Below, in pieces: positions 10,938-24,811 of a DNA stretch of 64,000 nt. Within the stretch, counting starts at the first letter, position 1; each line of letters opens with the position of its first letter. This DNA comes from a virus (lineage: Duplodnaviria; Heunggongvirae; Uroviricota; Caudoviricetes). The stretch lies in the IMG/VR virus record IMGVR_UViG_2609459792_000007; one strand, given 5' to 3'. Below the pieces are notes generated by a model. The model was not told the DNA's origin, did no database searches, and saw only the letters and a list, made by a program, of their open reading frames with translations. The position numbers and the translations under genes are program-made.

Positions 10938-11273
10938 ATGGAGGAAAACATGTCGAACGAGATGGCGGGCGTTACAACAGAGCAAGTTGAGCGTATTGCC
11001 GCGATCGTTGCTCGGGAGGTTGTTGGCAAATTAGGTAAAGAGCTACGTGAAGAAATTGGCCAGGAGGTCAATGATCAGCTGAAAACCTACTTTGGTGATA
11101 TGACCCCGGCGCAACATAGTATTCAACACTCCAATCTGGACAAACTCCTTAACCGGTTAGATTCCATCTCCAGTGGGTTCTTTGGCGGCATTGTTTCTAA
11201 AATAACGTCGTTCATTATTACCGCACTGCTTTTGGGGTTAGCCGCGTATGGCGTAAAAAATGGACTGCAATAA
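10938..11273 (+). CDS. hypothetical membrane protein (holin candidate by position)
   Basis: 111 aa with one C-terminal hydrophobic helix (ITSFIITALLLGLAAYGV); sits at the head of the putative lysis cassette. Confidence 0.4.
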   Translation: MEENMSNEMAGVTTEQVERIAAIVAREVVGKLGKELREEIGQEVNDQLKTYFGDMTPAQHSIQHSNLDKLLNRLDSISSGFFGGIVSKITSFIITALLLGLAAYGVKNGLQ

Positions 11274-11286
11274 CAGGAGATCAAGG

Positions 11287-11979
11287 ATGAAGACTCCGAG
11301 AGGCATTCGTAATAATAACCCCGGTAATCTTGATAAAGGATCACCGTGGCAAGGTCTGGTTGCGAATCCAGACGAACCGCGTTTTTGCACGTTTAAAGAC
11401 CCTGTTTGGGGGATTCGTGCGCTGGCGGTGACTCTAATTACCTACCACGACAAACGTCGCGCAAAAGACGGCTCAAGTATCGATACCATTCGTGAAGTTA
11501 TTGAACGTTGGGCACCGCCGAATGAAAACAACACTGACGCCTACATTAATGAGGTGTCTAAAGCCGTTGGTGTAACCGCAGACATGATCATCGATCTGCA
11601 TGATTACGACATCCTTCGACCTTTGGTTGAGGCAATCATTCGCCACGAGAATGGCCGGGGTCCGCTAAAAACGCTGAACACCTGGTATGCGGCAGAAGTT
11701 ATTGAGGAAGGTCTGCGTCGAGCTGGCGTTGTTAAGCCGGTGAAAACCGTGAAGGCTGTTCCTGTAACTAAAGAAACAGCAGGCGCAACTGTTACAGCAG
11801 GTATTGGTCTGGCGCAACTGGCCGATGTTATGCCGCAGGTTTCCGCTGCTATGGATAAGGCACAAGGCCATATCTCTAGCGGGGATACAGTACGCATCAT
11901 CTTCGGTATTGCCACTATTGTTGTGGCCGGATTCATTGCCTGGTCGCAGGTAAGAAAACACCAGAAAGGGATGGTCTAA
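11287..11979 (+). CDS. hypothetical protein, endolysin candidate by position only
   Basis: ORF-track start is 11260; ATG at 11287 (MKTPRGIRNNNPGN..) has an AGGAG RBS and avoids overlap. C-terminal hydrophobic helix. Lies between holin-like gene and Rz/Rz1-like pair; catalytic family not recognised. Confidence 0.4.
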   Translation: MKTPRGIRNNNPGNLDKGSPWQGLVANPDEPRFCTFKDPVWGIRALAVTLITYHDKRRAKDGSSIDTIREVIERWAPPNENNTDAYINEVSKAVGVTADMIIDLHDYDILRPLVEAIIRHENGRGPLKTLNTWYAAEVIEEGLRRAGVVKPVKTVKAVPVTKETAGATVTAGIGLAQLADVMPQVSAAMDKAQGHISSGDTVRIIFGIATIVVAGFIAWSQVRKHQKGMV

Positions 11980-11980
11980 T

Positions 11981-12232
11981 ATGCTAGGCAGCCTGATGAC
12001 AAAGCTAAAAGTTGCTTTGATTACGCTGGCTGCCGTTCTTTTCGTTCTGGTCGGCGCTTACACGATGGGCGGGAATGCAGCACGACGAGCAATGGAAGAG
12101 AAGGCAAAACAGGAAGACAGAAAACGACTTCAAAGCACAGTGGACGTCAAAAATGAAACACTTGATGAGTTACGGCGCAAGGATGCTTCTTCTGTTCATC
12201 ATGAGTTGCACAATAAGTGGTTGCGTGATTAA
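11981..12232 (+). CDS. Rz-like i-spanin (short)
   Basis: 83 aa; N-terminal TM helix (LKVALITLAAVLFVLVGAY) then charged helical region; overlaps an out-of-frame lipoprotein ORF. Confidence 0.45.
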   Translation: MLGSLMTKLKVALITLAAVLFVLVGAYTMGGNAARRAMEEKAKQEDRKRLQSTVDVKNETLDELRRKDASSVHHELHNKWLRD

Positions 12233-12383
12233 GCCTCAACCCGCTGGTGTGCTTTTCTGCGATGCGGCTACACCGCTATACATCAGCCGTGATGATCTCA
12301 TGACCGAAGAGACTGAAAGAGAGGTGCTTTTTCACAATATGATAGGGGAGCGATTGTGTGGATGGGGCAGAAAAGTACCATAA
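12153..12383 (+). CDS. Rz1-like o-spanin lipoprotein
   Basis: Internal Met of the 12075..12383 ORF gives MKHLMSYGARMLLLFIMSCTISGC (signal peptide plus lipobox I-S-G-C); starts inside and extends beyond the Rz-like gene in another frame. Confidence 0.5.
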   Translation: MKHLMSYGARMLLLFIMSCTISGCVIKPQPAGVLFCDAATPLYISRDDLMTEETEREVLFHNMIGERLCGWGRKVP

Positions 12384-16771: not shown

Positions 16772-18112
16772 ATGACCGAACTTTGCCATACAGGACGCGG
16801 GCTGTCCGAAGAGTTTGATGAAGATTTCCAGAACAGACTGACGGCATATTTTTGTCGTGATCACGAGTTTCTTACTCGTGCGGGAGATCTGGTTGTGCCT
16901 AGCCAATTTGCCAATGCGGCCAATGCCATATTGGTTAATATGGTTTCGGGCTATTACCGTATGTACAAGAGCGCGCCCTCTTCATCTGCAATTCTGGATA
17001 TGCTTAAGCGTGCGAAACGCGATAAGACTATCCGTGAGGAACTATTCGCCGATGTTGTTGCTGCGTTTAAGCGCATCCTTGCAGAAAAATTGTCCGATAC
17101 CTCGTACATGGTTGACCAGGTATCAACCTTCGCAAAAAGCGTAGCGTTTGATGATGCTCTGATTAAGGCTGCTGAACTGAAAGAGAAAGGCGACTTTCAG
17201 GGGGCGATGGCAATCATGGCCAAGGTTCAGCAGATTGGATCGAACGAAGCGACCGGAATCTATGACTACTACACCTCCGCAAGTGAGCGATTGAAAGCGC
17301 GTGAATATGAGGCTTCAGAGGAGTATGTGCCAAACAGCATTACAACTGGACTCCCTCTGCTCGATAGGTTGCTGTACCAAAAAGGCTGGGCGAAGCGTGA
17401 AATGGTGCTCTTCATGGGGTTCGCTAAATCCGGTAAATCGACCGCAATGGGTGAGTTTTCCATAAACGCAACGCTTGCTGGCTACAATGTTCTGTATCTC
17501 TCGCTGGAGGTTCACACCAACATTTTGTCCGACCGTTTTGATGCAAGATTGTCGGAGACGGAAATGTCCAAGTTGGTGGAACGGCGCGATGAAGTTCATC
17601 GTAAGTTGGCAGAGTTGGGAGCCTCTAAGGGGATTGGTAGTTTGTGGGTTGTTGAGCGTCCGTCAGGAAGTATGTCACCGGCAGATCTGGACCGTATGCT
17701 TAACAGCATGAAAGCCAACGGCATGGTGCCTGACATGGTTGTTGTCGACTACGCAGATTTGATGCGTGCCAGTTATGACCTTCGTGATGATCGCGCCAAC
17801 ATTCGTAGTATCTACACCGATTTACGTGCTCTTTATGACAAGCATAACGTTGCTGGTATCACGGCGTCGCAAACAAACCGTGAAGGTGGCGCGTCAGAAG
17901 TTGCCACAATGATGCACGCTGCCGACAACATCGAAAAAGTACGTATTGCTGACCTGGTAATAACGATCAACAAAACCGAAGAAGAAGAAGCGAAAGGAGA
18001 GGCTCGTCTCTACTTTGCTGGTTCGCGTAACCAGCAGGGAGGGATCAGCATTCGCGTTAAACAAAACCTCGAACAAATGCGCTTCATTGAGCGGATCTTA
18101 GACGTTACCTAA
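16772..18112 (+). CDS. DnaB-like replicative helicase
   Basis: 446 aa; C-terminal RecA-fold with Walker A GFAKSGKST and Walker B-like VVVDYADLM; conserved start context AAAGGAAAGCACATG. Confidence 0.7.
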   Translation: MTELCHTGRGLSEEFDEDFQNRLTAYFCRDHEFLTRAGDLVVPSQFANAANAILVNMVSGYYRMYKSAPSSSAILDMLKRAKRDKTIREELFADVVAAFKRILAEKLSDTSYMVDQVSTFAKSVAFDDALIKAAELKEKGDFQGAMAIMAKVQQIGSNEATGIYDYYTSASERLKAREYEASEEYVPNSITTGLPLLDRLLYQKGWAKREMVLFMGFAKSGKSTAMGEFSINATLAGYNVLYLSLEVHTNILSDRFDARLSETEMSKLVERRDEVHRKLAELGASKGIGSLWVVERPSGSMSPADLDRMLNSMKANGMVPDMVVVDYADLMRASYDLRDDRANIRSIYTDLRALYDKHNVAGITASQTNREGGASEVATMMHAADNIEKVRIADLVITINKTEEEEAKGEARLYFAGSRNQQGGISIRVKQNLEQMRFIERILDVT

Positions 18113-18193
18113 AAAATAAGCGTGGAGAACACCTCCACGCTTGATTCATTGGTGAAACAACTTTTCTTTTGCCAAACCACAAAAGAAAAACAC

Positions 18194-19375
18194 ATGAGCC
18201 TTTATGTTATATCAACATTTAGGTTGGTCACAATATTGCCTGTTAAAAGTGGAATTATCGTGAGCGAGCTGAAAGAGCTAATTACCGAATTAGATTTTGA
18301 ACAATGGTTGGACACTGAAGGTATCGTTTATCGACGTGGAGGCGTGAGTGCTCGCGGTCGTGAAGTGAATATCAAGGAGTGTCCGGTATGCGGCAGCTCC
18401 AACTGGAAGGTATATTTCAATCTGACCAGTGGCGTCGGCAAATGCTTTGCTGGTGATCATCCCGAAGAGATTCAGTTCAATAAGCTGGTCTTCCTCAAGC
18501 ACTACAGCGGTAAATCACGACGACAGTTCGAGGAATATGTGCAGAACGCTCTTCTTTCCCAGGGGTGGGCACCAAAGAAAGAAGAGCTAGTGCTTGCAAG
18601 CACAGTCGAGTTAGAGGGGCCAGTTGCACTCCCTCGTCATTACGAGCTTCCTATAGATGGCCGTCTTCCAGACTATCTGGTTGAACGAAACATATCACCT
18701 GAAATGGCAAAGTATTTTGACCTACGATACTGCGTCGAAGGCAAGCACGCTTATGTAGATCCGTATACAGATCAGGTAAAAGGGCAGATATTCGATATGC
18801 GAGTACTGATACCGGTTTACGATCTGGATGGGGTAATGAAGACATTTCAGGGACGAGACATTACCGGTACAGCAGAACGCCGCTACCTCTTTCCTATGCA
18901 GCTTCCAGCTTCAGGTAAATTTCTCTACAACGGCCATAATGCAGTCGGCAAACAGACTGTAGTTGTCTGTGAGGGTGCGTTCGATGTTATGGGGGTCAAA
19001 CGAGCTATTTTCGACGAAGAAACATTACGTGATTACGTGGAGCCAATAGGAACGTTCGGGATGCATCTATCTGGTAACACCACTCAGGATGCAGAAGATC
19101 AGTTAGGCGCGTTCCTGACGCTCAAGGCGCGTGGGTTACGTAATGTGATCATGATGTGGGATAGTGAAAAGCAAGCTATACGCAACACTATGGCCGCAGC
19201 CAGGCGACTGACCAGTATCGGTCTTAATGTCAAAGTTGCGTGTTTGGGTGAGGAAGGACTCGACCCGGGCGGTGCAACGCCAGAACAAATTATCAAAGCC
19301 TATTATCGGGCAAAACCGTATACCAAACAGTTGGAGTTGCAAAGCAAGGTTTTGGGCATTAAGGCGCTATCGTAA
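18194..19375 (+). CDS. DNA primase (zinc-binding, TOPRIM)
   Basis: Start moved from ORF-track 18122 to the ATG at 18194 preceded by AAAAGAAAAACACATG; CPVCGSS..C..H zinc-binding segment; TOPRIM-like VVCEGAFDVMG and MMWDSE. Confidence 0.6.
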   Translation: MSLYVISTFRLVTILPVKSGIIVSELKELITELDFEQWLDTEGIVYRRGGVSARGREVNIKECPVCGSSNWKVYFNLTSGVGKCFAGDHPEEIQFNKLVFLKHYSGKSRRQFEEYVQNALLSQGWAPKKEELVLASTVELEGPVALPRHYELPIDGRLPDYLVERNISPEMAKYFDLRYCVEGKHAYVDPYTDQVKGQIFDMRVLIPVYDLDGVMKTFQGRDITGTAERRYLFPMQLPASGKFLYNGHNAVGKQTVVVCEGAFDVMGVKRAIFDEETLRDYVEPIGTFGMHLSGNTTQDAEDQLGAFLTLKARGLRNVIMMWDSEKQAIRNTMAAARRLTSIGLNVKVACLGEEGLDPGGATPEQIIKAYYRAKPYTKQLELQSKVLGIKALS

Positions 19376-20289: not shown

Positions 20290-20772
20290 ATGGCGATAGT
20301 TGTGAAAGCTGATTTGTCAAAAATCCCCTCTATTTCAGGAAATAATGGTTATTCACTTCGTTGTGAGGAAGTAAAGATAAACGGTGAGTCGGCATATTGC
20401 AGTTACTCCGTTTGCCAGCACACCATTCTTGCCTTCAAAGAAAACCGTCTTCCTCGAACTTCTTTCCAGTCGTGCGCAACCGCTATTAAAGCAGGCAAAT
20501 GCAAGGCGTTAAAAATGATGGTTGAAGAGATTCGTAAAGGAGAATCTCTGTATTTCGAAGATATGACCGCACTCATTAAGGAGGTTGAAGAACGGAATAA
20601 ACAAGCCAGAACTATAAAACGAAAACGTGACAGTGTAACGATTAATAGCATGGTTAAGAAGAGCGCCACATCACAAACAGCGATCACTGACGTGTATGCG
20701 GCGTTGCTTGAAGAAACAACAAAAGAAACACATGAGCAAATCGATCAACATATGGAGGCAAAACAACAATGA
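20290..20772 (+). CDS. hypothetical protein
   Basis: 160-aa ORF with several Cys; no motif recognised. Confidence 0.45.
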   Translation: MAIVVKADLSKIPSISGNNGYSLRCEEVKINGESAYCSYSVCQHTILAFKENRLPRTSFQSCATAIKAGKCKALKMMVEEIRKGESLYFEDMTALIKEVEERNKQARTIKRKRDSVTINSMVKKSATSQTAITDVYAALLEETTKETHEQIDQHMEAKQQ

Positions 20773-22091
20773 AAAAGTTGATCGCACTTAAGCATAAGCT
20801 GGACGAAATGAAAGCTATGGGAACCAATGCAAAAAAAGAGGCATTGGCCAACATGGATGACTTTGAACAAAGCATGGTTTCATTGATGCTCAACCCTTTC
20901 ATCCGTTTTGGGGTAAAGAAATACAAAGTGGCAGAGCCGCTTAGTGAGTCCGTCCCAAGTGACGAAAAAGCCATTGATGTACTGAATAAGCTGGCCTCTC
21001 GCGAGCTGACGGGGAACGCAGCAATAGTTGCTGTTGAGTCTATCGTAGCGTCAATGTGCGCCGATGGGCAGGACGTGTTCCGTCGTTTCCTCTTAAAAGA
21101 CCCGAAAGCAGGTGTTGGGATTAGCCTATGCAACAAGGTTTTTGAGAATCCCATTCCGAAATTCGAGGTGCAGCTGGCGTCACCGTATAAAGAAAAAGGC
21201 GACAAATACCCCTTCAAGCCAAATCCTAAAGCAAAATGGCCGATGATTGGCAGTCTTAAGCTCGATGGTTTGCGAGTAATTTGCGAGGTTATTGTTGACG
21301 AGGAAGAGGTTAACTTCCTTTCTCGTACTGGTAATCCAATCACGTCTCTCGATCACCTAAAGCCAGCAATGCTCGAATTAGGCAAACTTTCAGGCCACAA
21401 ACACATCTTCTTCGATGGTGAAGGAACAGCCGGTTCATTTAACCAGTCCGTATCTGCATTGCGCAAAAAGAACGTGCAGGCAATTGGCGCTATTTATCAT
21501 GTTTTCGACTTCTTCCTACCGGAATGGCGGGCACAGGCTAAATCCAAAGAGTATGCAAAGACAGGTATGAAGCTGAAAGAGCGCCTGGCTATGCTGGTGG
21601 CGTTGTTCAAAAACGATCGCAGTGAAGGCTACGGACAAGACATTCACCTGCATCCGTTCTATATCATCCATAGCCACGAAGATTTCATCGAACGCTTTAT
21701 GAAACGCCTGGACGATAACGAAGAAGGGGAGATGGGCAAAGATCCGAACTCTGTTTACGAGTTTAAACGTACCCGCAGCTGGTGGAAGTTAAAAGACGAA
21801 GATTCAGAAGATGGTGAAATTATCGACTTTGAGCCGGGCGACCCGGACTCTGGTTTTGCCAACACACTTGGAAAAATTGTTATTCGTCTTGAAAACGGCG
21901 TCATCGTTCGTGCGAGCGGCATTAAGCATAAATATCTGGACGAGATCTGGAACAACAAAGAGAAGTACCGTGGTCGTATTGTTGAGGTTCATTGTCACGA
22001 GAAAACGCCGGATGGCAGCTTACGCCACCCACGACTGAAATGGCCGCGTTGCTTACGCGATACAGAAGATCGAATCGGAGATAAAGAATGA
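20769..22091 (+). CDS. ATP-dependent DNA ligase
   Basis: 440 aa; adenylation motif SLKLDGLRV (KxDG). Confidence 0.7.
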   Translation: MKKLIALKHKLDEMKAMGTNAKKEALANMDDFEQSMVSLMLNPFIRFGVKKYKVAEPLSESVPSDEKAIDVLNKLASRELTGNAAIVAVESIVASMCADGQDVFRRFLLKDPKAGVGISLCNKVFENPIPKFEVQLASPYKEKGDKYPFKPNPKAKWPMIGSLKLDGLRVICEVIVDEEEVNFLSRTGNPITSLDHLKPAMLELGKLSGHKHIFFDGEGTAGSFNQSVSALRKKNVQAIGAIYHVFDFFLPEWRAQAKSKEYAKTGMKLKERLAMLVALFKNDRSEGYGQDIHLHPFYIIHSHEDFIERFMKRLDDNEEGEMGKDPNSVYEFKRTRSWWKLKDEDSEDGEIIDFEPGDPDSGFANTLGKIVIRLENGVIVRASGIKHKYLDEIWNNKEKYRGRIVEVHCHEKTPDGSLRHPRLKWPRCLRDTEDRIGDKE

Positions 22092-22267
22092 TGCTCGGCT
22101 GGATGATTGCATTTTTAGCGGTTGGTTTTTTAATCGGTATTGTGGTGATGTCCAGTTGCATCAATGACTACATTAAAAGCGGTGTTATAGAACGACGCGG
22201 TCGTATTTATCGCATTGTAGAAATAACCCACACAGTGAAGGAGATTAAGGATGATCGTATTAAGTAA
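22088..22267 (+). CDS. small membrane protein (59 aa, below ORF-track cutoff)
   Basis: Read from sequence: MMLGWMIAFLAVGFLIGIVVMSS..GRIYRIVEITH; one TM helix then a basic tail; paralogous pattern to the two small genes that follow. Confidence 0.4.
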   Translation: MMLGWMIAFLAVGFLIGIVVMSSCINDYIKSGVIERRGRIYRIVEITHTVKEIKDDRIK

Positions 22268-22466
22268 GCGGGAGAAGGAAACGCTTCATGAAATCAGTAA
22301 GTGGCCGGAGTTCCCTGAGTACTGGAAGCCTAAAACGCGGGCTAAGTTAGAGCGGTTAGGGTTGGTTGCAAACGTTTCTGAAACGTGGTGTTCGGCCAAC
22401 TACCAGTTAACTGATAAAGGGAAAGTATTGCTACAGCAATTAGTAGAATCAGGAGCGTTAAAATGA
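22251..22466 (+). CDS. hypothetical protein
   Basis: 71-aa ORF; no motif recognised. Confidence 0.4.
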   Translation: MIVLSKREKETLHEISKWPEFPEYWKPKTRAKLERLGLVANVSETWCSANYQLTDKGKVLLQQLVESGALK

Positions 22467-22615
22467 TTCCATACATCTCATTAGCTTTTATGGGTGGCTT
22501 CCTTATTGGCTTCGGCATCTGTCGTGATTTAATTAAGCAGGAACTTAAAACCAAAACACTGTGCATCGGAAAGCGTGTGTATCGGGTAGTTCATGAAACA
22601 AAGGTTAGAAAATGA
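22463..22615 (+). CDS. small membrane protein (50 aa, below ORF-track cutoff)
   Basis: Read from sequence: MIPYISLAFMGGFLIGFGICRD..GKRVYRVVHETK; TM helix plus basic tail. Confidence 0.4.
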   Translation: MIPYISLAFMGGFLIGFGICRDLIKQELKTKTLCIGKRVYRVVHETKVRK

Positions 22616-22902
22616 GCAATTTAACTTCTTGGGACTGGTGGTTGGTCACCTATTTCTTAGCGGCTGGAGTAGCATTCGCCTTTTACGTAGGTCAGTTAGT
22701 CGTAAAACTGTTGCTGATTAAATTTGCTAGTCATAAACGTATCGATGATGGTCTGTGGCGTCTTGGCACCTTGGTGGAAACTCGCTACGGGCAACTTAAG
22801 GAGAACGAAACCATTACTATCCAAGCGAAACGATTCACTGCCACCATCACAAGAACACCTAGTCGTAGAGTGGCCTTGATCAAAAAAGTCACAACCGAAT
22901 AA
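22612..22902 (+). CDS. small membrane protein
   Basis: 96 aa; N-terminal TM helix (WWLVTYFLAAGVAFAFYVG), then ..LGTLVETRYG.. Confidence 0.45.
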   Translation: MSNLTSWDWWLVTYFLAAGVAFAFYVGQLVVKLLLIKFASHKRIDDGLWRLGTLVETRYGQLKENETITIQAKRFTATITRTPSRRVALIKKVTTE

Positions 22903-23681
22903 AAATACAATGATAAGTATTTACTTACTTATCTTATATGTATAAGATGACTTTGTTTTCGTTGAGACGCGACTGTTTGAACTTAAATACAAGTGCAAAC
23001 GAAGAAGTCTATCTGGCAGTAGCCTAATAAGCCAAACACCAGCGAGGTCAGTTTCCAGCCTCGTTACCGAAATGGGACACACTGAGCGAGTGTGATTGCA
23101 GAACGCAGGAGGGAACATTCATGTTCCCTCCGATGAAGTAACAGAATGGGCGGTTGGTATATTTTCAACTCCATATGACTCCCGGATTCTTAGCCACTGA
23201 CCGCCCATTCTGTTACGTCATTTTGTTCAATTATGTCGTTTATACTGGGTTAAAAAGCGGCGACGTAGCCCGGCTGGTATGGTCAGCCAGCACACAACGT
23301 TGAGGCCATTACATTTTTATCAATTCTAAGGTTCTATTCACAGAGATACCGGCGAGCGTTGATATGTAACATGTTGGGCAAACATTCAATCGGAGTAGTG
23401 GCCTCAACGTTGTGAAAATAGGATAGTTGTGTAGGTTTAACCACTGTTGCCATTGGTACCTGTTTTCACAACAAATGATTCCATACATCACATTGTATAA
23501 ATTACAAAGTAGGTGCTGTCCTCAGAAACATCATCTACTTAAATAATTTGCCTTCTACTATTGAGCGAAGTCGAAAGCGTCTGGCACTAACGAAAAGTGC
23601 AAGTAGCGGTGCGTTTCCTGGCAGAAACTAACACCGCCGCGATTGGCACTGTTGAGTAATAAATACTGGCAGTGCTGAATT

Positions 23682-23756
23682 GATGGTGTAGCTCAGCGGT
23701 AGAGCAGTTGGCTGTTAACCAACTGGTCGGTGGTTCGAATCCACCCACCATCGCCA
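23682..23756 (+). tRNA. tRNA-Asn (GTT)
   Basis: Cloverleaf read by hand: acceptor GATGGTG/CACCATC, D-arm GCTC-AGCGGTA-GAGC, anticodon loop CTGTTAA, T-arm GGTGG-TTCGAAT-CCACC, CCA encoded. Confidence 0.85.
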
Positions 23757-23761
23757 ATTTA

Positions 23762-23848
23762 GGGGAGTTAGTCCGTAGAGGTAGCGGGGTAGACTGTAAA
23801 TCTACTGTCATGGAGACTCGGGTGGTTCGACTCCATCACTCCCCACCA
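23762..23848 (+). tRNA. tRNA-Tyr (GTA), long variable arm
   Basis: Acceptor GGGGAGT/ACTCCCC, anticodon stem-loop GTAGA-CTGTAAA-TCTAC, long variable arm, TTCGA T-loop, CCA encoded; D-arm pairing atypical. Confidence 0.7.
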
Positions 23849-23852
23849 AATT

Positions 23853-23928
23853 GCCGGTTTAGCTCAGTTGGTAGAGCGCCTGCCTTGTAAGCAGGATGTC
23901 AGCGGTTCGAGTCCGTTAACCGGCACCA
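23853..23928 (+). tRNA. tRNA-Thr (TGT)
   Basis: Acceptor GCCGGTT/AACCGGC, D-arm GCTC-AGTTGGTA-GAGC, anticodon loop CTTGTAA, T-loop TTCGAGT, CCA encoded. Confidence 0.85.
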
Positions 23929-24142
23929 ATACAACGATAAGATCATTACGGTTAATCGTCGTTCATGTGCACAATGACTGGTCGAAAGGTAGTGATCTTA
24001 CCGTTGTGGTGGATTCGCAGACTGATGCGATAGCTTTCTTGGATGTTAGGGAAATGCGGCCGCAAATCTTCCCTTTCGCGAGCGGTGATCGTCCGTAGTC
24101 CTAATTGGCTGCACCGTATGCCGGAGATTCAGTACCGGCCAC

Positions 24143-24229
24143 CACAACGGCCGGAGAGTAGGGAGCATGGTGCTCAAGCGGTCTTGAAAACCGTCCCATT
24201 GCGCAAGCGATGATGGTTCGATTCCATTA
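24143..24229 (+). tRNA. tRNA-Ser (TGA), class II
   Basis: Acceptor GGAGAGT/ACTCTCC, anticodon stem-loop GCGGT-CTTGAAA-ACCGT, long variable arm, T-loop TTCGATT, CCA encoded; D-arm atypical. Confidence 0.65.
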
Positions 24230-24396
24230 CTCTCCGCCAGACACAGCGTTGAGCGGTTTGGCCTTTTAATCAACTCGATTAAGACTCCGCTAACATAAAC
24301 CAGACCGCTCAACGCTGTGATAGACAATTACGGCAGACGTTCTTAACCATAGCTTGCTAACATCCTAGCAACACTTTTTTTCAGCGCAAAATTCAA

Positions 24397-24460: not shown

Positions 24461-24811
24461 ATGACCAGCAAAGAGAACACACCACTAAAAGTCACCCCTG
24501 AACACATTGAACAACTCATTCAAAGTGAACATTATTTCACTGCATATGATGCCAGCCACGGGGATAACTTCATCTCTGTTTACAATTCAAAAACAGATAT
24601 CGACAAAGGTCATGAGTCGTTAAAACTCTTAACGTTCTGCGTTATGGTTCTCAAAAATGGATATACCGTAACGGGAAAATCTGCGTGCGTAAGACCAGAA
24701 ATCTTCAACTTTGATGTTGGTCGTGAGTACGCTCGAAAAGATGCTATCGATCAAATCTGGCCCCTGGAAGGCTATCTCCTGAAGCAAAAGTGGCATGAGG
24801 CAAAGCAATGA
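24461..24811 (+). CDS. hypothetical protein
   Basis: 116-aa ORF; no motif recognised with confidence. Confidence 0.5.
   Translation: MTSKENTPLKVTPEHIEQLIQSEHYFTAYDASHGDNFISVYNSKTDIDKGHESLKLLTFCVMVLKNGYTVTGKSACVRPEIFNFDVGREYARKDAIDQIWPLEGYLLKQKWHEAKQ

What the first reader, a model, noticed from the sequence alone, without database searches (positions are those of the whole stretch)
22088..22902. Three tandem paralogous small membrane proteins
Three consecutive small ORFs (59, 50 and 96 aa; two below the ORF-track cutoff) each start with one transmembrane helix followed by a basic segment with a shared R.YR.VE.T / LVETRYG pattern, suggesting local duplication. Tandem small TM proteins in phages are often holin/antiholin-like, toxin-like or exclusion factors.
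Basis: seen in the sequence. Interest (0 to 1): 0.45.

Follow-up and report, generated by a model that had tools for sequence, protein, structure and literature searches.

The report
Small membrane-protein genes after phage ligase
Four (not three) tiny overlapping genes follow the DNA ligase of an SSU5-type phage-plasmid: three are real single-pass membrane proteins, two of them true paralogues, and one is a soluble probable DNA-binding protein; function is unknown, and they are probably dispensable lytic-phase membrane factors, not holins.

Summary
The window is an SSU5-like phage-plasmid (98% identical to E. coli LF82 phage Cyrano). Region 22088-22902 holds four overlapping, translationally coupled genes behind the DNA ligase:
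- A: 59 aa, one TM helix.
- C: 50 aa, one TM helix.
- D: 96 aa, one TM helix.

All four are real genes (dN/dS about 0.05-0.4, conserved synteny). A and C are genuine old paralogues of one orphan family, with GxxxG in the helix and a cytoplasmic G-[RK]-R-[IV]-Y-R-[IV]-V-x-x-T tail. D shares only the architecture; homology to A/C is not supported.

The conserved unit is the C-D pair. A and B are add-ons, and 13 close relatives have lost A. C/D are replaced by an unrelated gene in some lineages and absent from distant ones.

Published LF82 RNA-seq puts B, C and D at the detection floor in the plasmid state, like the ligase. A complete holin-endolysin-spanin cassette lies 10 kb upstream. So lytic-phase accessory membrane proteins fit best; holin, plasmid-addiction toxin and lysogen-expressed exclusion fit poorly. 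The mechanism remains inferred.

In passing: the 780-nt spacer between D and the tRNA cluster is a conserved, covarying structured RNA with no Rfam match.

The parts
20769..22091 (+). ATP-dependent DNA ligase, last large gene of the helicase-primase-ligase operon. Its TGA overlaps the ATG of gene A (ATGA).
   Evidence: phrog_114, E=2.3e-125; annotated as DNA ligase in Cyrano and SSU5.
22088..22267 (+). Gene A, 59 aa, single-pass membrane protein of the A/C family (phrog_4381). Equals SSU5_045; unannotated in Cyrano.
   Evidence: dN/dS 0.05-0.2. GGAG lies 7 nt before the start. 36 homologues, all from Enterobacterales, most on contigs of about 100-112 kb.
22106..22162 (+). Predicted TM helix of A (aa 7-25), containing G13-x-x-x-G17. 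Both glycines are invariant across the A and C families.
   Evidence: KD19 = 2.60; invariant columns G13 and G17 in alignment A1; AF2 helix with pLDDT 80-90.
22199..22228 (+). Cytoplasmic tail motif of A, G-R-I-Y-R-I-V-E-I-T. R39, Y41, R42 and T47 are invariant in A and C.
   Evidence: The AF2 secondary structure here is low confidence (pLDDT 57-59).
22251..22466 (+). Gene B, 71 aa, soluble, probable winged-helix protein (phrog_4054). Equals CYRAN_37 ('putative transcriptional regulator') and SSU5_046. Its start lies 17 nt inside A and its stop overlaps the start of C.
   Evidence: Seven of 9 family members give sub-threshold hits to Pfam HTH_45 (best E=0.0065); weak hit to the Csa3 wHTH.
22463..22615 (+). 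Gene C, 50 aa, single-pass membrane protein and paralogue of A (phrog_6302). Equals CYRAN_38 and SSU5_047. TM at aa 2-20 with G12-x-x-x-G16.
   Evidence: dN/dS 0.08-0.4.
22568..22600 (+). Cytoplasmic tail motif of C, G-K-R-V-Y-R-V-V-H-E-T.
   Evidence: Nearly invariant in 35 C variants; aligned with the A motif.
22612..22902 (+). Gene D, 96 aa, single-pass membrane protein (phrog_4507). Equals CYRAN_39 and SSU5_048; named 'C-type natriuretic protein' in many NCBI records. Invariant core K-R-I-D-D-x-L-W-R-L-G...Y-G-x-L-K...K-R-F-T.
   Evidence: dN/dS 0.15-0.36. AF2: helix 6-59 plus beta-hairpin 67-71/76-80, mean pLDDT 62.7.
22663..22719 (+). Predicted TM helix of D (aa 18-36).
   Evidence: KD19 = 2.00; no K/R in the N-terminal flank and 13 K/R in the C-terminal flank.
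22077..22092 (+). Left copy of an imperfect 16-nt direct repeat, GGAGATAAAGAATGAT (Shine-Dalgarno plus start of A). With the right copy it brackets the 163-nt segment missing in A-less relatives.
   Evidence: Sequence; alignment of A-less loci L004, L009, L025 and L036 against the window.
22240..22255 (+). Right copy of the direct repeat, GGAGATTAAGGATGAT (Shine-Dalgarno plus start of B).

Best explanation
Shown: the interval is the translationally coupled tail of the helicase-primase-ligase operon of an SSU5-like phage-plasmid. It encodes four small proteins. A and C are ancient paralogues of one orphan family. By the positive-inside rule they are predicted to be N-out/C-in single-pass inner-membrane proteins, with an invariant GxxxG in the helix and a short basic cytoplasmic tail, G-[RK]-R-[IV]-Y-[RK]-[IV]-V-x-x-T. 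D is a third bitopic protein with the same architecture but no demonstrable homology. B is a soluble, probable winged-helix protein. The evolutionarily stable unit is the C-D pair, always adjacent and overlapping; A (with B) is an add-on that close relatives lose by a 163-nt deletion between two repeated SD/start regions. B, C and D are silent in the plasmid state, as the ligase is, and the C-D slot is replaceable. Inferred: they are made together with the replication proteins after induction. They probably associate in the membrane through their TM helices (GxxxG; C with D, A as an alternative partner) and act from the cytoplasmic face, through their basic tails, on a host or incoming-phage target at the inner membrane. 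This would be a lytic-phase host-takeover or exclusion function of the kind carried out by other small phage membrane proteins. They are not the holin.
For: - Real genes: conserved synteny in about 80 loci, low dN/dS, SD motifs 7 nt upstream, and ATGA overlaps.
- A/C paralogy.
- Topology: no K/R before the TM and 9-13 after it.
- C-D core: cassette types are ABCD 59, -BCD 13 and --CD 6 loci. A-like, B-like, C-like and D-like genes are all present in a Klebsiella-type relative with 70% ligase identity.
- Accessory nature: A is lost in 13 loci. The 3' half of C plus D is replaced by an unrelated 138-aa tail-anchored ORF in L073/L074. The cassette is absent from Xenorhabdus and Morganella relatives, where the slot holds a RelE-like/HTH pair or other cargo. 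Related elements carry Tad2-like, Acb2/Tad1-like and Lar-like genes a few kb downstream.
- Expression: CYRAN_37-39 have log2(FPKM+5) of 2.3-3.0 in overnight LB culture of the lysogen, equal to the ligase (2.45/2.66) and the terminase, against 6.4-6.8 for the repressor. They are not on the authors' moron list (PMC9928086).
- No sigma-70-like promoter or terminator separates them from the replication genes.
- The lysis cassette is elsewhere.
Against: - No experiment or homology links any of the four proteins to a function. Pfam, NCBIfam, PADLOC, PHROGs, PDB sequence search and a fold search all return nothing usable.
- TM-TM association and C-D pairing are inferred only from the GxxxG motif, co-occurrence and gene overlap.
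- AF2 models are low confidence (pLDDT 62.7 and 70.0). For A the model gives one continuous helix rather than a folded tail.
- Lytic expression is inferred from silence in lysogeny and from operon position, not measured after induction.
- Tight coupling to the ligase fits a replication-linked role equally well.
- In some LF82 conditions B and D read about 2-4-fold above the ligase, so an internal promoter is not excluded.
Confidence: 0.45

Rival explanations
1. Membrane organisers of phage DNA replication. The bitopic proteins (with the winged-helix protein B) would tether replicating phage DNA or the replisome to the inner membrane through their basic cytoplasmic tails, working like phi29 p16.7 and p1.
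For: The genes are the overlapping, translationally coupled end of the helicase-primase-ligase operon in every lineage that has them. Their expression is as low as the ligase's in lysogeny. The tails carry net charges of +3 to +7. A probable DNA-binding winged-helix protein sits in the cassette.
Against: The genes are dispensable or replaceable. A is lost in 13 loci. C/D are replaced by an unrelated gene in L073/L074. The cassette is absent from Xenorhabdus and Morganella relatives that keep the same ligase and replication genes. No similarity to p16.7/p1 or to any DNA-binding fold was found. The A/C tails are only about 25-35 residues long.
Confidence: 0.15
2. Lysis-timing regulators (antiholin or holin accessory). 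The small TM proteins would bind the holin of the distant lysis cassette through helix-helix contacts, as T4 RI does although it is not encoded next to the holin gene t.
For: The generic holin-like build is present: small size, one TM helix and a charged C-terminus. A GxxxG helix-packing motif is present.
Against: A full holin-endolysin-Rz(-Rz1) cassette lies 10 kb away, with none of these genes next to it. There is no significant match to any holin or antiholin family. The predicted periplasmic parts are only about 1-17 residues long, so periplasmic sensing of the RI type is implausible.
Confidence: 0.1
3. Toxin-like peptides. The hydrophobic peptides would be membrane-damaging toxins, either an addiction module with B as regulator or antitoxin, or abortive-infection effectors.
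For: Their size and hydrophobicity resemble type I toxins. The same slot holds a RelE-like/HTH pair in a Xenorhabdus relative. Cyrano carries several toxin-antitoxin systems elsewhere.
Against: An addiction module must be expressed in the plasmid state, yet B, C and D are at the detection floor there, whereas Cyrano's KacT, HicA and RelE modules are on the authors' list of expressed morons. There is no Hok/Gef or other toxin family match. The genes have no promoter of their own and are translationally coupled to the ligase. The strongly conserved cytoplasmic tail motif points to a specific interaction rather than generic membrane damage.
Confidence: 0.06
4. Lysogenic-conversion exclusion or defence genes, expressed from the resident plasmid to block incoming phages (SieA or HK97 gp15 type).
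For: Small inner-membrane proteins are the usual build of such factors. The slot lies at the edge of a variable accessory region.
Against: They are not expressed above background in the LF82 lysogen and are not on the moron list. No PADLOC match was found.
Confidence: 0.05

Closest known systems
T4 Imm and Sp, and similar small inner-membrane exclusion or takeover proteins made early in lytic infection (own knowledge of the T4 literature)
   Same: Very small phage-encoded inner-membrane proteins that are made during lytic development, are accessory, and are dispensable for growth.
   Different: No sequence or profile similarity. Imm has two TM segments (own knowledge). No exclusion phenotype has been tested here. 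These genes are coupled to a replication operon.
phi29 p16.7 and p1, membrane proteins that organise phage DNA replication (own knowledge)
   Same: An N-terminal membrane anchor with a cytoplasmic basic C-terminal part, encoded with early/replication genes.
   Different: p16.7 has a coiled coil and a folded DNA-binding domain of about 60 residues, whereas the A/C tails are 25-35 residues. No homology was found. The cassette is dispensable in relatives with the same replication genes.
SPO1 gp56 and Kil-type small phage inhibitors of host cell division (own knowledge)
   Same: Small bitopic, phage-encoded membrane proteins that act on a host envelope machine during host takeover.
   Different: They come from unrelated phages and hosts. 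No similarity is detectable, and no division phenotype has been tested.
Holins and antiholins (lambda S105/S107, T4 T/RI)
   Same: Small size, TM helix, charged C-terminus, and helix-helix packing motifs.
   Different: These genes are not in the lysis cassette, which is complete without them. They match no holin family and have almost no periplasmic domain.
Hok/Gef and other type I toxins
   Same: Peptides of about 50 aa with one N-terminal TM helix. C even shows a superficial K-[ST]-L-C...R-x-Y-R resemblance to Hok (my inspection only).
   Different: No Pfam Hok_Gef hit at E<=1. The Cys is not conserved in the C family. The charge distribution predicts the opposite topology. They are operon-embedded and silent in the plasmid state.

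Membership tests
A/C small-TM family (the paralogy claim) | A and C share significant sequence similarity over their full length | tested here: met
   BLASTP E=2e-5; hhalign E=1.9e-5, 46 columns; shuffle p about 0.001 and cross-family HMM hits; invariant G13, G17, R39, Y41, R42 and T47; bridging intermediates P0109, P0118, P0119 and P0120.
A/C small-TM family (the paralogy claim) | D belongs to the same family | tested here: not met
   No BLASTP alignment. hhalign probability 0.3-3.4%, E 0.013-0.22. Shuffle p 0.24 and 0.71. The D HMM hits no A or C ORF below E=8.
Holin / antiholin | Encoded in or next to the lysis cassette (endolysin, spanins) | tested here: not met
   The lysis cassette lies at window 10938-12383 (endolysin phrog_873 E=6e-89, Rz-like spanin phrog_1275). 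Cyrano's holin, endolysin, Rz and Rz1 are CYRAN_22-25. The small genes lie 10 kb downstream.
Holin / antiholin | Profile match to a described holin or antiholin family | tested here: not met
   The only hit is phrog_2359 (holin) at E=0.042, restricted to D residues 8-34, which is the TM segment. Nothing in Pfam.
Holin / antiholin | Forms membrane lesions or shifts lysis timing | not testable with these tools
   Needs induction experiments.
Hok/Gef and other type I toxins | Profile match to a toxin family, and a stand-alone locus with its own promoter and antisense RNA | tested here: not met
   No Hok_Gef or other toxin family hit at E<=1. The genes overlap each other and the ligase. No promoter-like site lies on the + strand between 19000 and 24600.
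Plasmid addiction (toxin-antitoxin) module | Expressed while the element is maintained as a plasmid | tested here: not met
   CYRAN_37-39 are at the detection floor in overnight LB culture of the lysogen, whereas Cyrano's KacT, HicA/B and RelE genes are listed as expressed morons (PMC9928086).
Prophage-expressed superinfection exclusion / defence systems | Match to a known defence protein model, and expression in the lysogen | tested here: not met
   No PADLOC hits for A, C or D. Expression is at background in the lysogen. An exclusion phenotype was not testable.
phi29 p16.7/p1-type membrane replication organisers | N-terminal TM anchor, cytoplasmic C-terminal part, encoded with replication genes | tested here: met
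   Hydropathy and charge distribution. Position as the tail of the helicase-primase-ligase operon. These are predictions only.
phi29 p16.7/p1-type membrane replication organisers | Homology, or a folded DNA-binding domain | tested here: not met
   No Pfam, PDB or fold match. The AF2 models show only a helix (A), or a helix plus a hairpin (D), at low confidence.
Natriuretic peptide family (NCBI product name of D) | Match to the natriuretic-peptide domain | tested here: not met
   Pfam scans of D and of 14 D-family members at E<=1 list only Tetrabrachion and DUF6559 as weak hits, with no natriuretic-peptide family. The name is carried by many records and appears to be a propagated misnomer.
Winged-helix DNA-binding proteins (gene B) | Profile match above threshold to a wHTH family | tested here: inconclusive
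   Seven of 9 B-family members hit Pfam HTH_45, and others hit HTH_27, DUF6293_C or WH_AprA, all below the gathering score (best E=0.0065). Csa3 wHTH E=0.0015. PDB profile search: PA1607 (an HxlR-type protein, from my own knowledge) at E=0.72.
Bacterial lipoproteins (A contains V-M-S-S-C) | Conserved lipobox Cys after a positively charged n-region | tested here: not met
   There is no K/R in the first six residues. The Cys is absent in A-family variants A5 and A6 and in P0119 and P0120.

The most novel reading that the evidence does not exclude
A, C and D (possibly all descended from one ancestral bitopic protein; the TM helix and an aromatic-Arg motif align in register at hhalign E=0.013) form a hetero-oligomeric inner-membrane platform. 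This platform would recruit the winged-helix protein B and/or replicating phage DNA. It would be a Gram-negative, phage-plasmid counterpart of the phi29 p16.7/p1 membrane replication organisers, built from unrelated 50-100-aa proteins.
Probability: 0.12. Interest if true: 0.6.

Novelty: new member of a known kind. Interest (0 to 1): 0.3.

Why it matters
These genes sit in a clinically widespread element. The 815-nt cassette matches 751 PLSDB plasmids (Klebsiella, Escherichia, Enterobacter, Salmonella, Yersinia, Citrobacter and others). It also matches 210 of 5,426 complete E. coli genomes, always on plasmids.

The genes are also poorly handled by annotation:
- A is missing from the curated Cyrano record.
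- The C-like gene with a TTG start is not called in L083.
- D carries the propagated name 'C-type natriuretic protein'.

In itself, a set of small phage membrane proteins of unknown function is ordinary.

Tried and rejected
- Family and structure searches all gave nothing above threshold for A, C or D: Pfam, NCBIfam and PADLOC, a PDB sequence-profile search for D, and Foldseek of the D model against BFVD (0 hits at E<=0.001).
- The B profile against PDB also found nothing significant.
- AF2 models were low confidence: D pLDDT 62.7 and A pLDDT 70.0. My expectation that the A/C tail is a beta-hairpin was not supported, because AF2 drew one long helix at low confidence.
Both prediction jobs were then spent on D and A.
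- The first attempt at the homologue search for A timed out and was repeated.
- Widening the A/C and D profiles with distant members did not rescue A/C-D homology.
- A Hok-like reading of C was rejected. I saw K-T-L-C...R-V-Y-R by eye, but there is no Pfam hit, the Cys is not conserved, and the predicted topology is the opposite.
- A lipoprotein reading of A (V-M-S-S-C) was rejected.
- I checked Y. pestis pMT1 as a well-studied relative. The CO92 copy lacks the ligase region altogether.
- A literature search for 'C-type natriuretic protein' together with 'plasmid' found nothing.
- P0097, a D-like hit carrying Pfam Phage_gp49_66, is a deletion chimera of D with the gene beyond the tRNAs, not a clue to function.
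Full report
**What the window is.** The region is 97.6-98.2% identical to Escherichia phage Cyrano (the phage-plasmid pLF82 of E. coli LF82) and to 'phage CMS-2020a', and 78% identical to Salmonella phage SSU5. The window carries:
- a lysis cassette at 10938-12383 (Cyrano annotation);
- a DnaB-like helicase (16772-18112), a primase (18122-19375) and an ATP-dependent DNA ligase (20769-22091);
- four tRNA genes at 23682-24239.

**The observation.** Between the ligase and the tRNAs there are four small ORFs on the + strand, not three.

| Gene | Coordinates | Length |
|---|---|---|
| A | 22088-22267 | 59 aa |
| B | 22251-22466 | 71 aa |
| C | 22463-22615 | 50 aa |
| D | 22612-22902 | 96 aa |

- The ligase/A, B/C and C/D junctions are ATGA overlaps. 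B starts 17 nt inside A. Each start has an SD-like motif 7 nt upstream.
- A, C and D each have one strongly hydrophobic N-terminal segment, with no K/R before it and 9-13 K/R after it. The positive-inside rule therefore predicts N-out/C-in topology (an inference). B has no hydrophobic segment.
- SSU5 annotates all four genes (SSU5_045-048). Cyrano annotates only B, C and D.

**Are they genes?** Yes.
- I fetched 80 IMG/VR loci through the ligase (84-100% identity). The cassette is present behind the ligase in nearly all of them.
- Substitutions are conservative in the TM segments, and the tails are almost invariant.
- Nei-Gojobori dN/dS against the window is 0.05-0.2 for A, 0.08-0.4 for C and 0.15-0.36 for D. 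For B the synonymous sites are saturated, so no ratio could be computed.
- Each protein has its own PHROG, all of unknown function.

**Are they paralogues?** A and C are; D is not demonstrably so.
- BLASTP A-C: E=2e-5, 33% identity over 45 residues.
- Family profiles align end to end: hhalign E=1.9e-5, probability 78%, 46 columns.
- In 20,000 shuffles that keep the TM and tail compartments, p is about 0.001.
- An HMM built from A alone hits all 87 C-type ORFs as its next-best targets (best 1.4e-9). The C HMM hits A ORFs (best 1.3e-3).
- In a joint alignment, G13 and G17 (a GxxxG motif in the helix) and R39, Y41, R42 and T47 are invariant.
- A full HMMER scan of 1.84 billion representative proteins with the joint profile found only 22 proteins. 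Among them are intermediates that combine C-like N-termini with A-like tails, such as P0118 (MMIPYI...RRRVYRVVEITE) and P0119/P0120.
- D gives no BLASTP alignment with A or C. hhalign probabilities are 0.3-3.4% even after adding distant members, and shuffle p is 0.24 and 0.71.
- The best A/C-D profile alignment does place the TM helix and an aromatic-Arg pair (VYR against LWR) in register at E=0.013. It is compatible with very remote kinship or convergence, but it is not evidence.

**Anatomy of the cassette across relatives.** Counts are approximate, because some contigs end inside the cassette.

| Cassette type | Loci | Where |
|---|---|---|
| lig-A-B-C-D | 59 | window, SSU5, Kluyvera, and a Klebsiella-type element with only 70% ligase identity |
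| lig-B-C-D | 13 | close relatives |
| lig-C-D only | 6 | Cronobacter/Enterobacter-type and other elements with about 74% ligase identity, which carry a single A/C-family gene followed by a divergent D |

- In the lig-B-C-D loci exactly 163 nt are missing. The missing segment is bounded by two copies of GGAGATwAAGrATGAT (22077-22092 and 22240-22255), which are the SD/start regions of A and B. As a result B becomes coupled to the ligase stop codon.
- The C-D pair is therefore the stable unit. The A/C duplication predates the split of these lineages. In this sample A is always accompanied by B (on L087 as well), with three apparent exceptions: the 669-bp contig L086, and L021 and L078, where ORF calling missed a B that tblastn finds.
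- In four loci C is truncated and D is missing (L072, L073, L074, L079). In L073, and in L074 which has the same coordinates, the 3' half of C and all of D are replaced by an unrelated 138-aa ORF with a C-terminal hydrophobic segment.
- In Xenorhabdus hominickii and Morganella psychrotolerans elements (ligase 56-57% identical) the slot holds a RelE-like/HTH pair, or two unrelated proteins of about 255 aa.
- The cassette is thus persistent within Enterobacteriaceae-type SSU5 elements, but dispensable and swappable.
- Its reach is wide: 751 PLSDB plasmids and 210 of 5,426 complete E. coli genomes, never on a chromosome.

**What the proteins look like.**
- Nothing in Pfam, NCBIfam, PADLOC or PDB sequences matches A, C or D.
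- AF2 gives D a helix at 6-59 followed by a beta-hairpin at 67-71/76-80 (mean pLDDT 62.7).
- AF2 gives A one helix at 3-57, with a confident TM part and a low-confidence tail (mean pLDDT 70.0). The tail structure is unresolved.
- A Foldseek search with the D model returned nothing significant.
- B looks like a small winged-helix protein. Seven of 9 family members hit Pfam HTH_45, all below threshold. Weak hits to the Csa3 wHTH and to PA1607 point the same way. This is suggestive only.
- The NCBI product name of D, 'C-type natriuretic protein', has no support in any profile search.

**When are they made?**
- A simple scan finds no sigma-70-like promoter on the + strand between 19000 and 24600, and no convincing terminator inside the cassette.
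- The LF82 study (PMC9928086) lists the genes of each prophage that are expressed at least 5-fold above local background in the lysogen. For Cyrano the list includes the repressor and three toxin-antitoxin modules, but not CYRAN_37-39.
- The S1 Table of that study gives log2(FPKM+5) in overnight LB:

| Gene | log2(FPKM+5), two replicates |
|---|---|
| B (CYRAN_37) | 2.97 / 2.32 |
| C (CYRAN_38) | 2.32 / 2.32 (the floor) |
| D (CYRAN_39) | 2.83 / 3.00 |
| ligase | 2.45 / 2.66 |
| small terminase | 2.98 / 2.67 |
| repressor | 6.75 / 6.39 |

- In the other conditions of that table B and D rise to about 5-6, which is 2-4-fold above the ligase. A weak internal promoter is therefore not excluded.
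- Gene A is unannotated in Cyrano and has no value.
- B, C and D therefore behave like lytic genes and are silent in the plasmid state.

**Mechanism.**
- Shown: the cassette holds real, conserved genes for three predicted bitopic proteins plus one soluble protein, translationally coupled to the replication operon; B, C and D are silent in lysogeny; the genes are dispensable and replaceable; and they are not part of the lysis cassette.
- Inferred: N-out/C-in topology; helix-helix association through the invariant GxxxG; C-D partnership (from strict adjacency, overlap and co-retention); and action of the conserved basic tails at the cytoplasmic face of the inner membrane.
- I judge a lytic-phase host-takeover or exclusion role the most likely class, at about 0.3-0.35. 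The reasons are that the slot behaves as an accessory swap site, that related elements carry anti-defence genes (Tad2-like, Acb2/Tad1-like, Lar-like) a few kb downstream, and that small bitopic phage proteins of this build usually act this way (own knowledge).
- Rivals:
  - A replication-tether role (phi29 p16.7/p1-like) is the main rival, at about 0.15. Operon coupling and the presence of B favour it; dispensability disfavours it.
  - Antiholin, about 0.1.
  - Toxin, about 0.06.
  - Lysogen-expressed exclusion, about 0.05.
- The overall confidence of 0.45 combines near-certainty about what the genes are with this modest confidence in mechanism.

**Comparison with the known, and novelty.** The proteins are not members of any described family. 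By architecture they are further examples of small phage single-pass membrane proteins of unknown function. The A/C family is an orphan confined to SSU5-like elements. This is a new member of a known kind, of modest interest.

**Noticed in passing: a structured RNA after D.**
- The 780-nt 'spacer' between the D stop codon and tRNA-Asn (22903-23681) is more conserved at the nucleotide level than the small proteins. Identity is 72-82% over about 400 nt, even in lineages whose D I estimate at only about 35% identical, and in those that lost D.
- It folds into many helices with compensatory changes.
  - 5' part (15 lineages): 97 pairs and 97.9% of cells paired. 17 pairs change on both sides, against 5.1 +/- 1.8 in shuffles (0 of 500 reached it) and 2-6 in slid controls.
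  - 3' part (10 lineages): 53 pairs, 9 of them compensatory.
- U-G pairs indicate that the + strand is the RNA.
- An invariant palindrome and a promoter-like TTTACT...TATAAG lie just after the D stop.
- Rfam 15 gives only 14-17-bit tmRNA-model hits, and no GOLLD or ROOL.
- Large ornate phage RNAs such as ROOL and GOLLD are likewise 'often near tRNA islands' (PMC12286853). That is a positional analogy only.
- This element deserves its own follow-up and may be more interesting than the finding itself.

Noticed in passing
window 22903-23681 (+), especially 22955-23320 and 23293-23472: The whole spacer between gene D and the tRNA cluster is a conserved, highly structured candidate ncRNA of about 400-780 nt. 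It shows 72-82% nt identity across lineages whose D proteins I estimate at about 35-73% identical. The 5' part has 97 predicted pairs, 17 of them compensatory (0 of 500 shuffles reach this). The 3' part has 53 pairs, 9 of them compensatory. Long stems lie at 23133-23154/23200-23221, 23293-23312/23395-23414 and 23409-23422/23459-23472. A covarying hairpin with variable loop length lies at 23108-23131. Rfam has no match apart from 14-17-bit tmRNA-model hits. Its position next to a phage tRNA island recalls ROOL and GOLLD, but neither model hits it.
   Followed up: partly
window 22913-22946: Immediately after the D stop codon there is an almost invariant AT-rich palindrome, ATAAGTA-TTTACT-TACTTAT. 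It overlaps a promoter-like TTTACT ... TATAAG pair. It could be an operator plus promoter for the downstream RNA/tRNA region, and a candidate site for the winged-helix protein B. The consensus promoter scan did not report it.
   Followed up: no
window 22088-22267; L001 4189-4365; L083 6401-6559: Small genes are under-annotated. Gene A is absent from the curated Cyrano record although it is 95% identical there. The C-like gene of the Klebsiella-type element L083 (TTG start) was not called by the source's gene caller. Many plasmid records list only three 'hypothetical proteins' over the four genes.
   Followed up: yes
window 22612-22902: The D family is widely named 'C-type natriuretic protein' in NCBI records (SSU5_048 and many plasmids). 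No profile search supports this, so it looks like a propagated misannotation.
   Followed up: yes
L073 5846-6262 (also L074): In L073 and L074 the 3' half of C and all of D are replaced by an unrelated 138-aa ORF with a C-terminal hydrophobic segment, while the downstream structured RNA is kept. L072 and L079 show the same C truncation and D loss but were not inspected for the replacement ORF.
   Followed up: partly
L096 4978-5688; L097 4904-6426: In distant SSU5-like elements of Xenorhabdus hominickii and Morganella psychrotolerans the post-ligase slot has different contents. Xenorhabdus carries what looks like a RelE/ParE-like toxin with an HTH antitoxin (my reading of the sequences). Morganella carries two unknown proteins of about 255 aa. 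This marks the slot as an accessory-gene hotspot.
   Followed up: partly
L083 9594-10381; L089 8168-8689; L091 7430-7636: A few kb downstream of the cassette, related elements carry Tad2-like, Acb2/Tad1-hairpin and Lar (restriction alleviation) Pfam hits, plus a HEPN_Toprim_N gene. This forms an anti-defence/defence island next to the replication operon.
   Followed up: no
window 23762-23848 and 24046-24327 (-); L001 5906-6118: The window has four tRNAs (Asn, Tyr, Thr, Ser), whereas Cyrano annotates three and lacks Tyr. Cyrano's CYRAN_40 is listed as an expressed 'moron' in PMC9928086. It is a minus-strand ORF that overlaps tRNA-Thr and tRNA-Ser, so its signal may simply be tRNA reads.
   Followed up: no
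P0097 (protein found): A 106-aa protein fuses the first 56 or so residues of D to the C-terminal part of the gp49/66-family protein encoded beyond the tRNAs (window 24461-24811). This implies a natural deletion that removes the end of D, the structured RNA and the tRNA cluster in at least one element.
   Followed up: no
L100/L101 (Y. pestis CO92 pMT1, NC_003134.1): pMT1 shares the SSU5-type structural, recombination and RepA modules. It lacks the helicase-primase-ligase region and the small-gene cassette. Its accessory cargo (caf1 operon, phospholipase D, IS elements) lies next to the SSU5-type integrase gene.
   Followed up: partly
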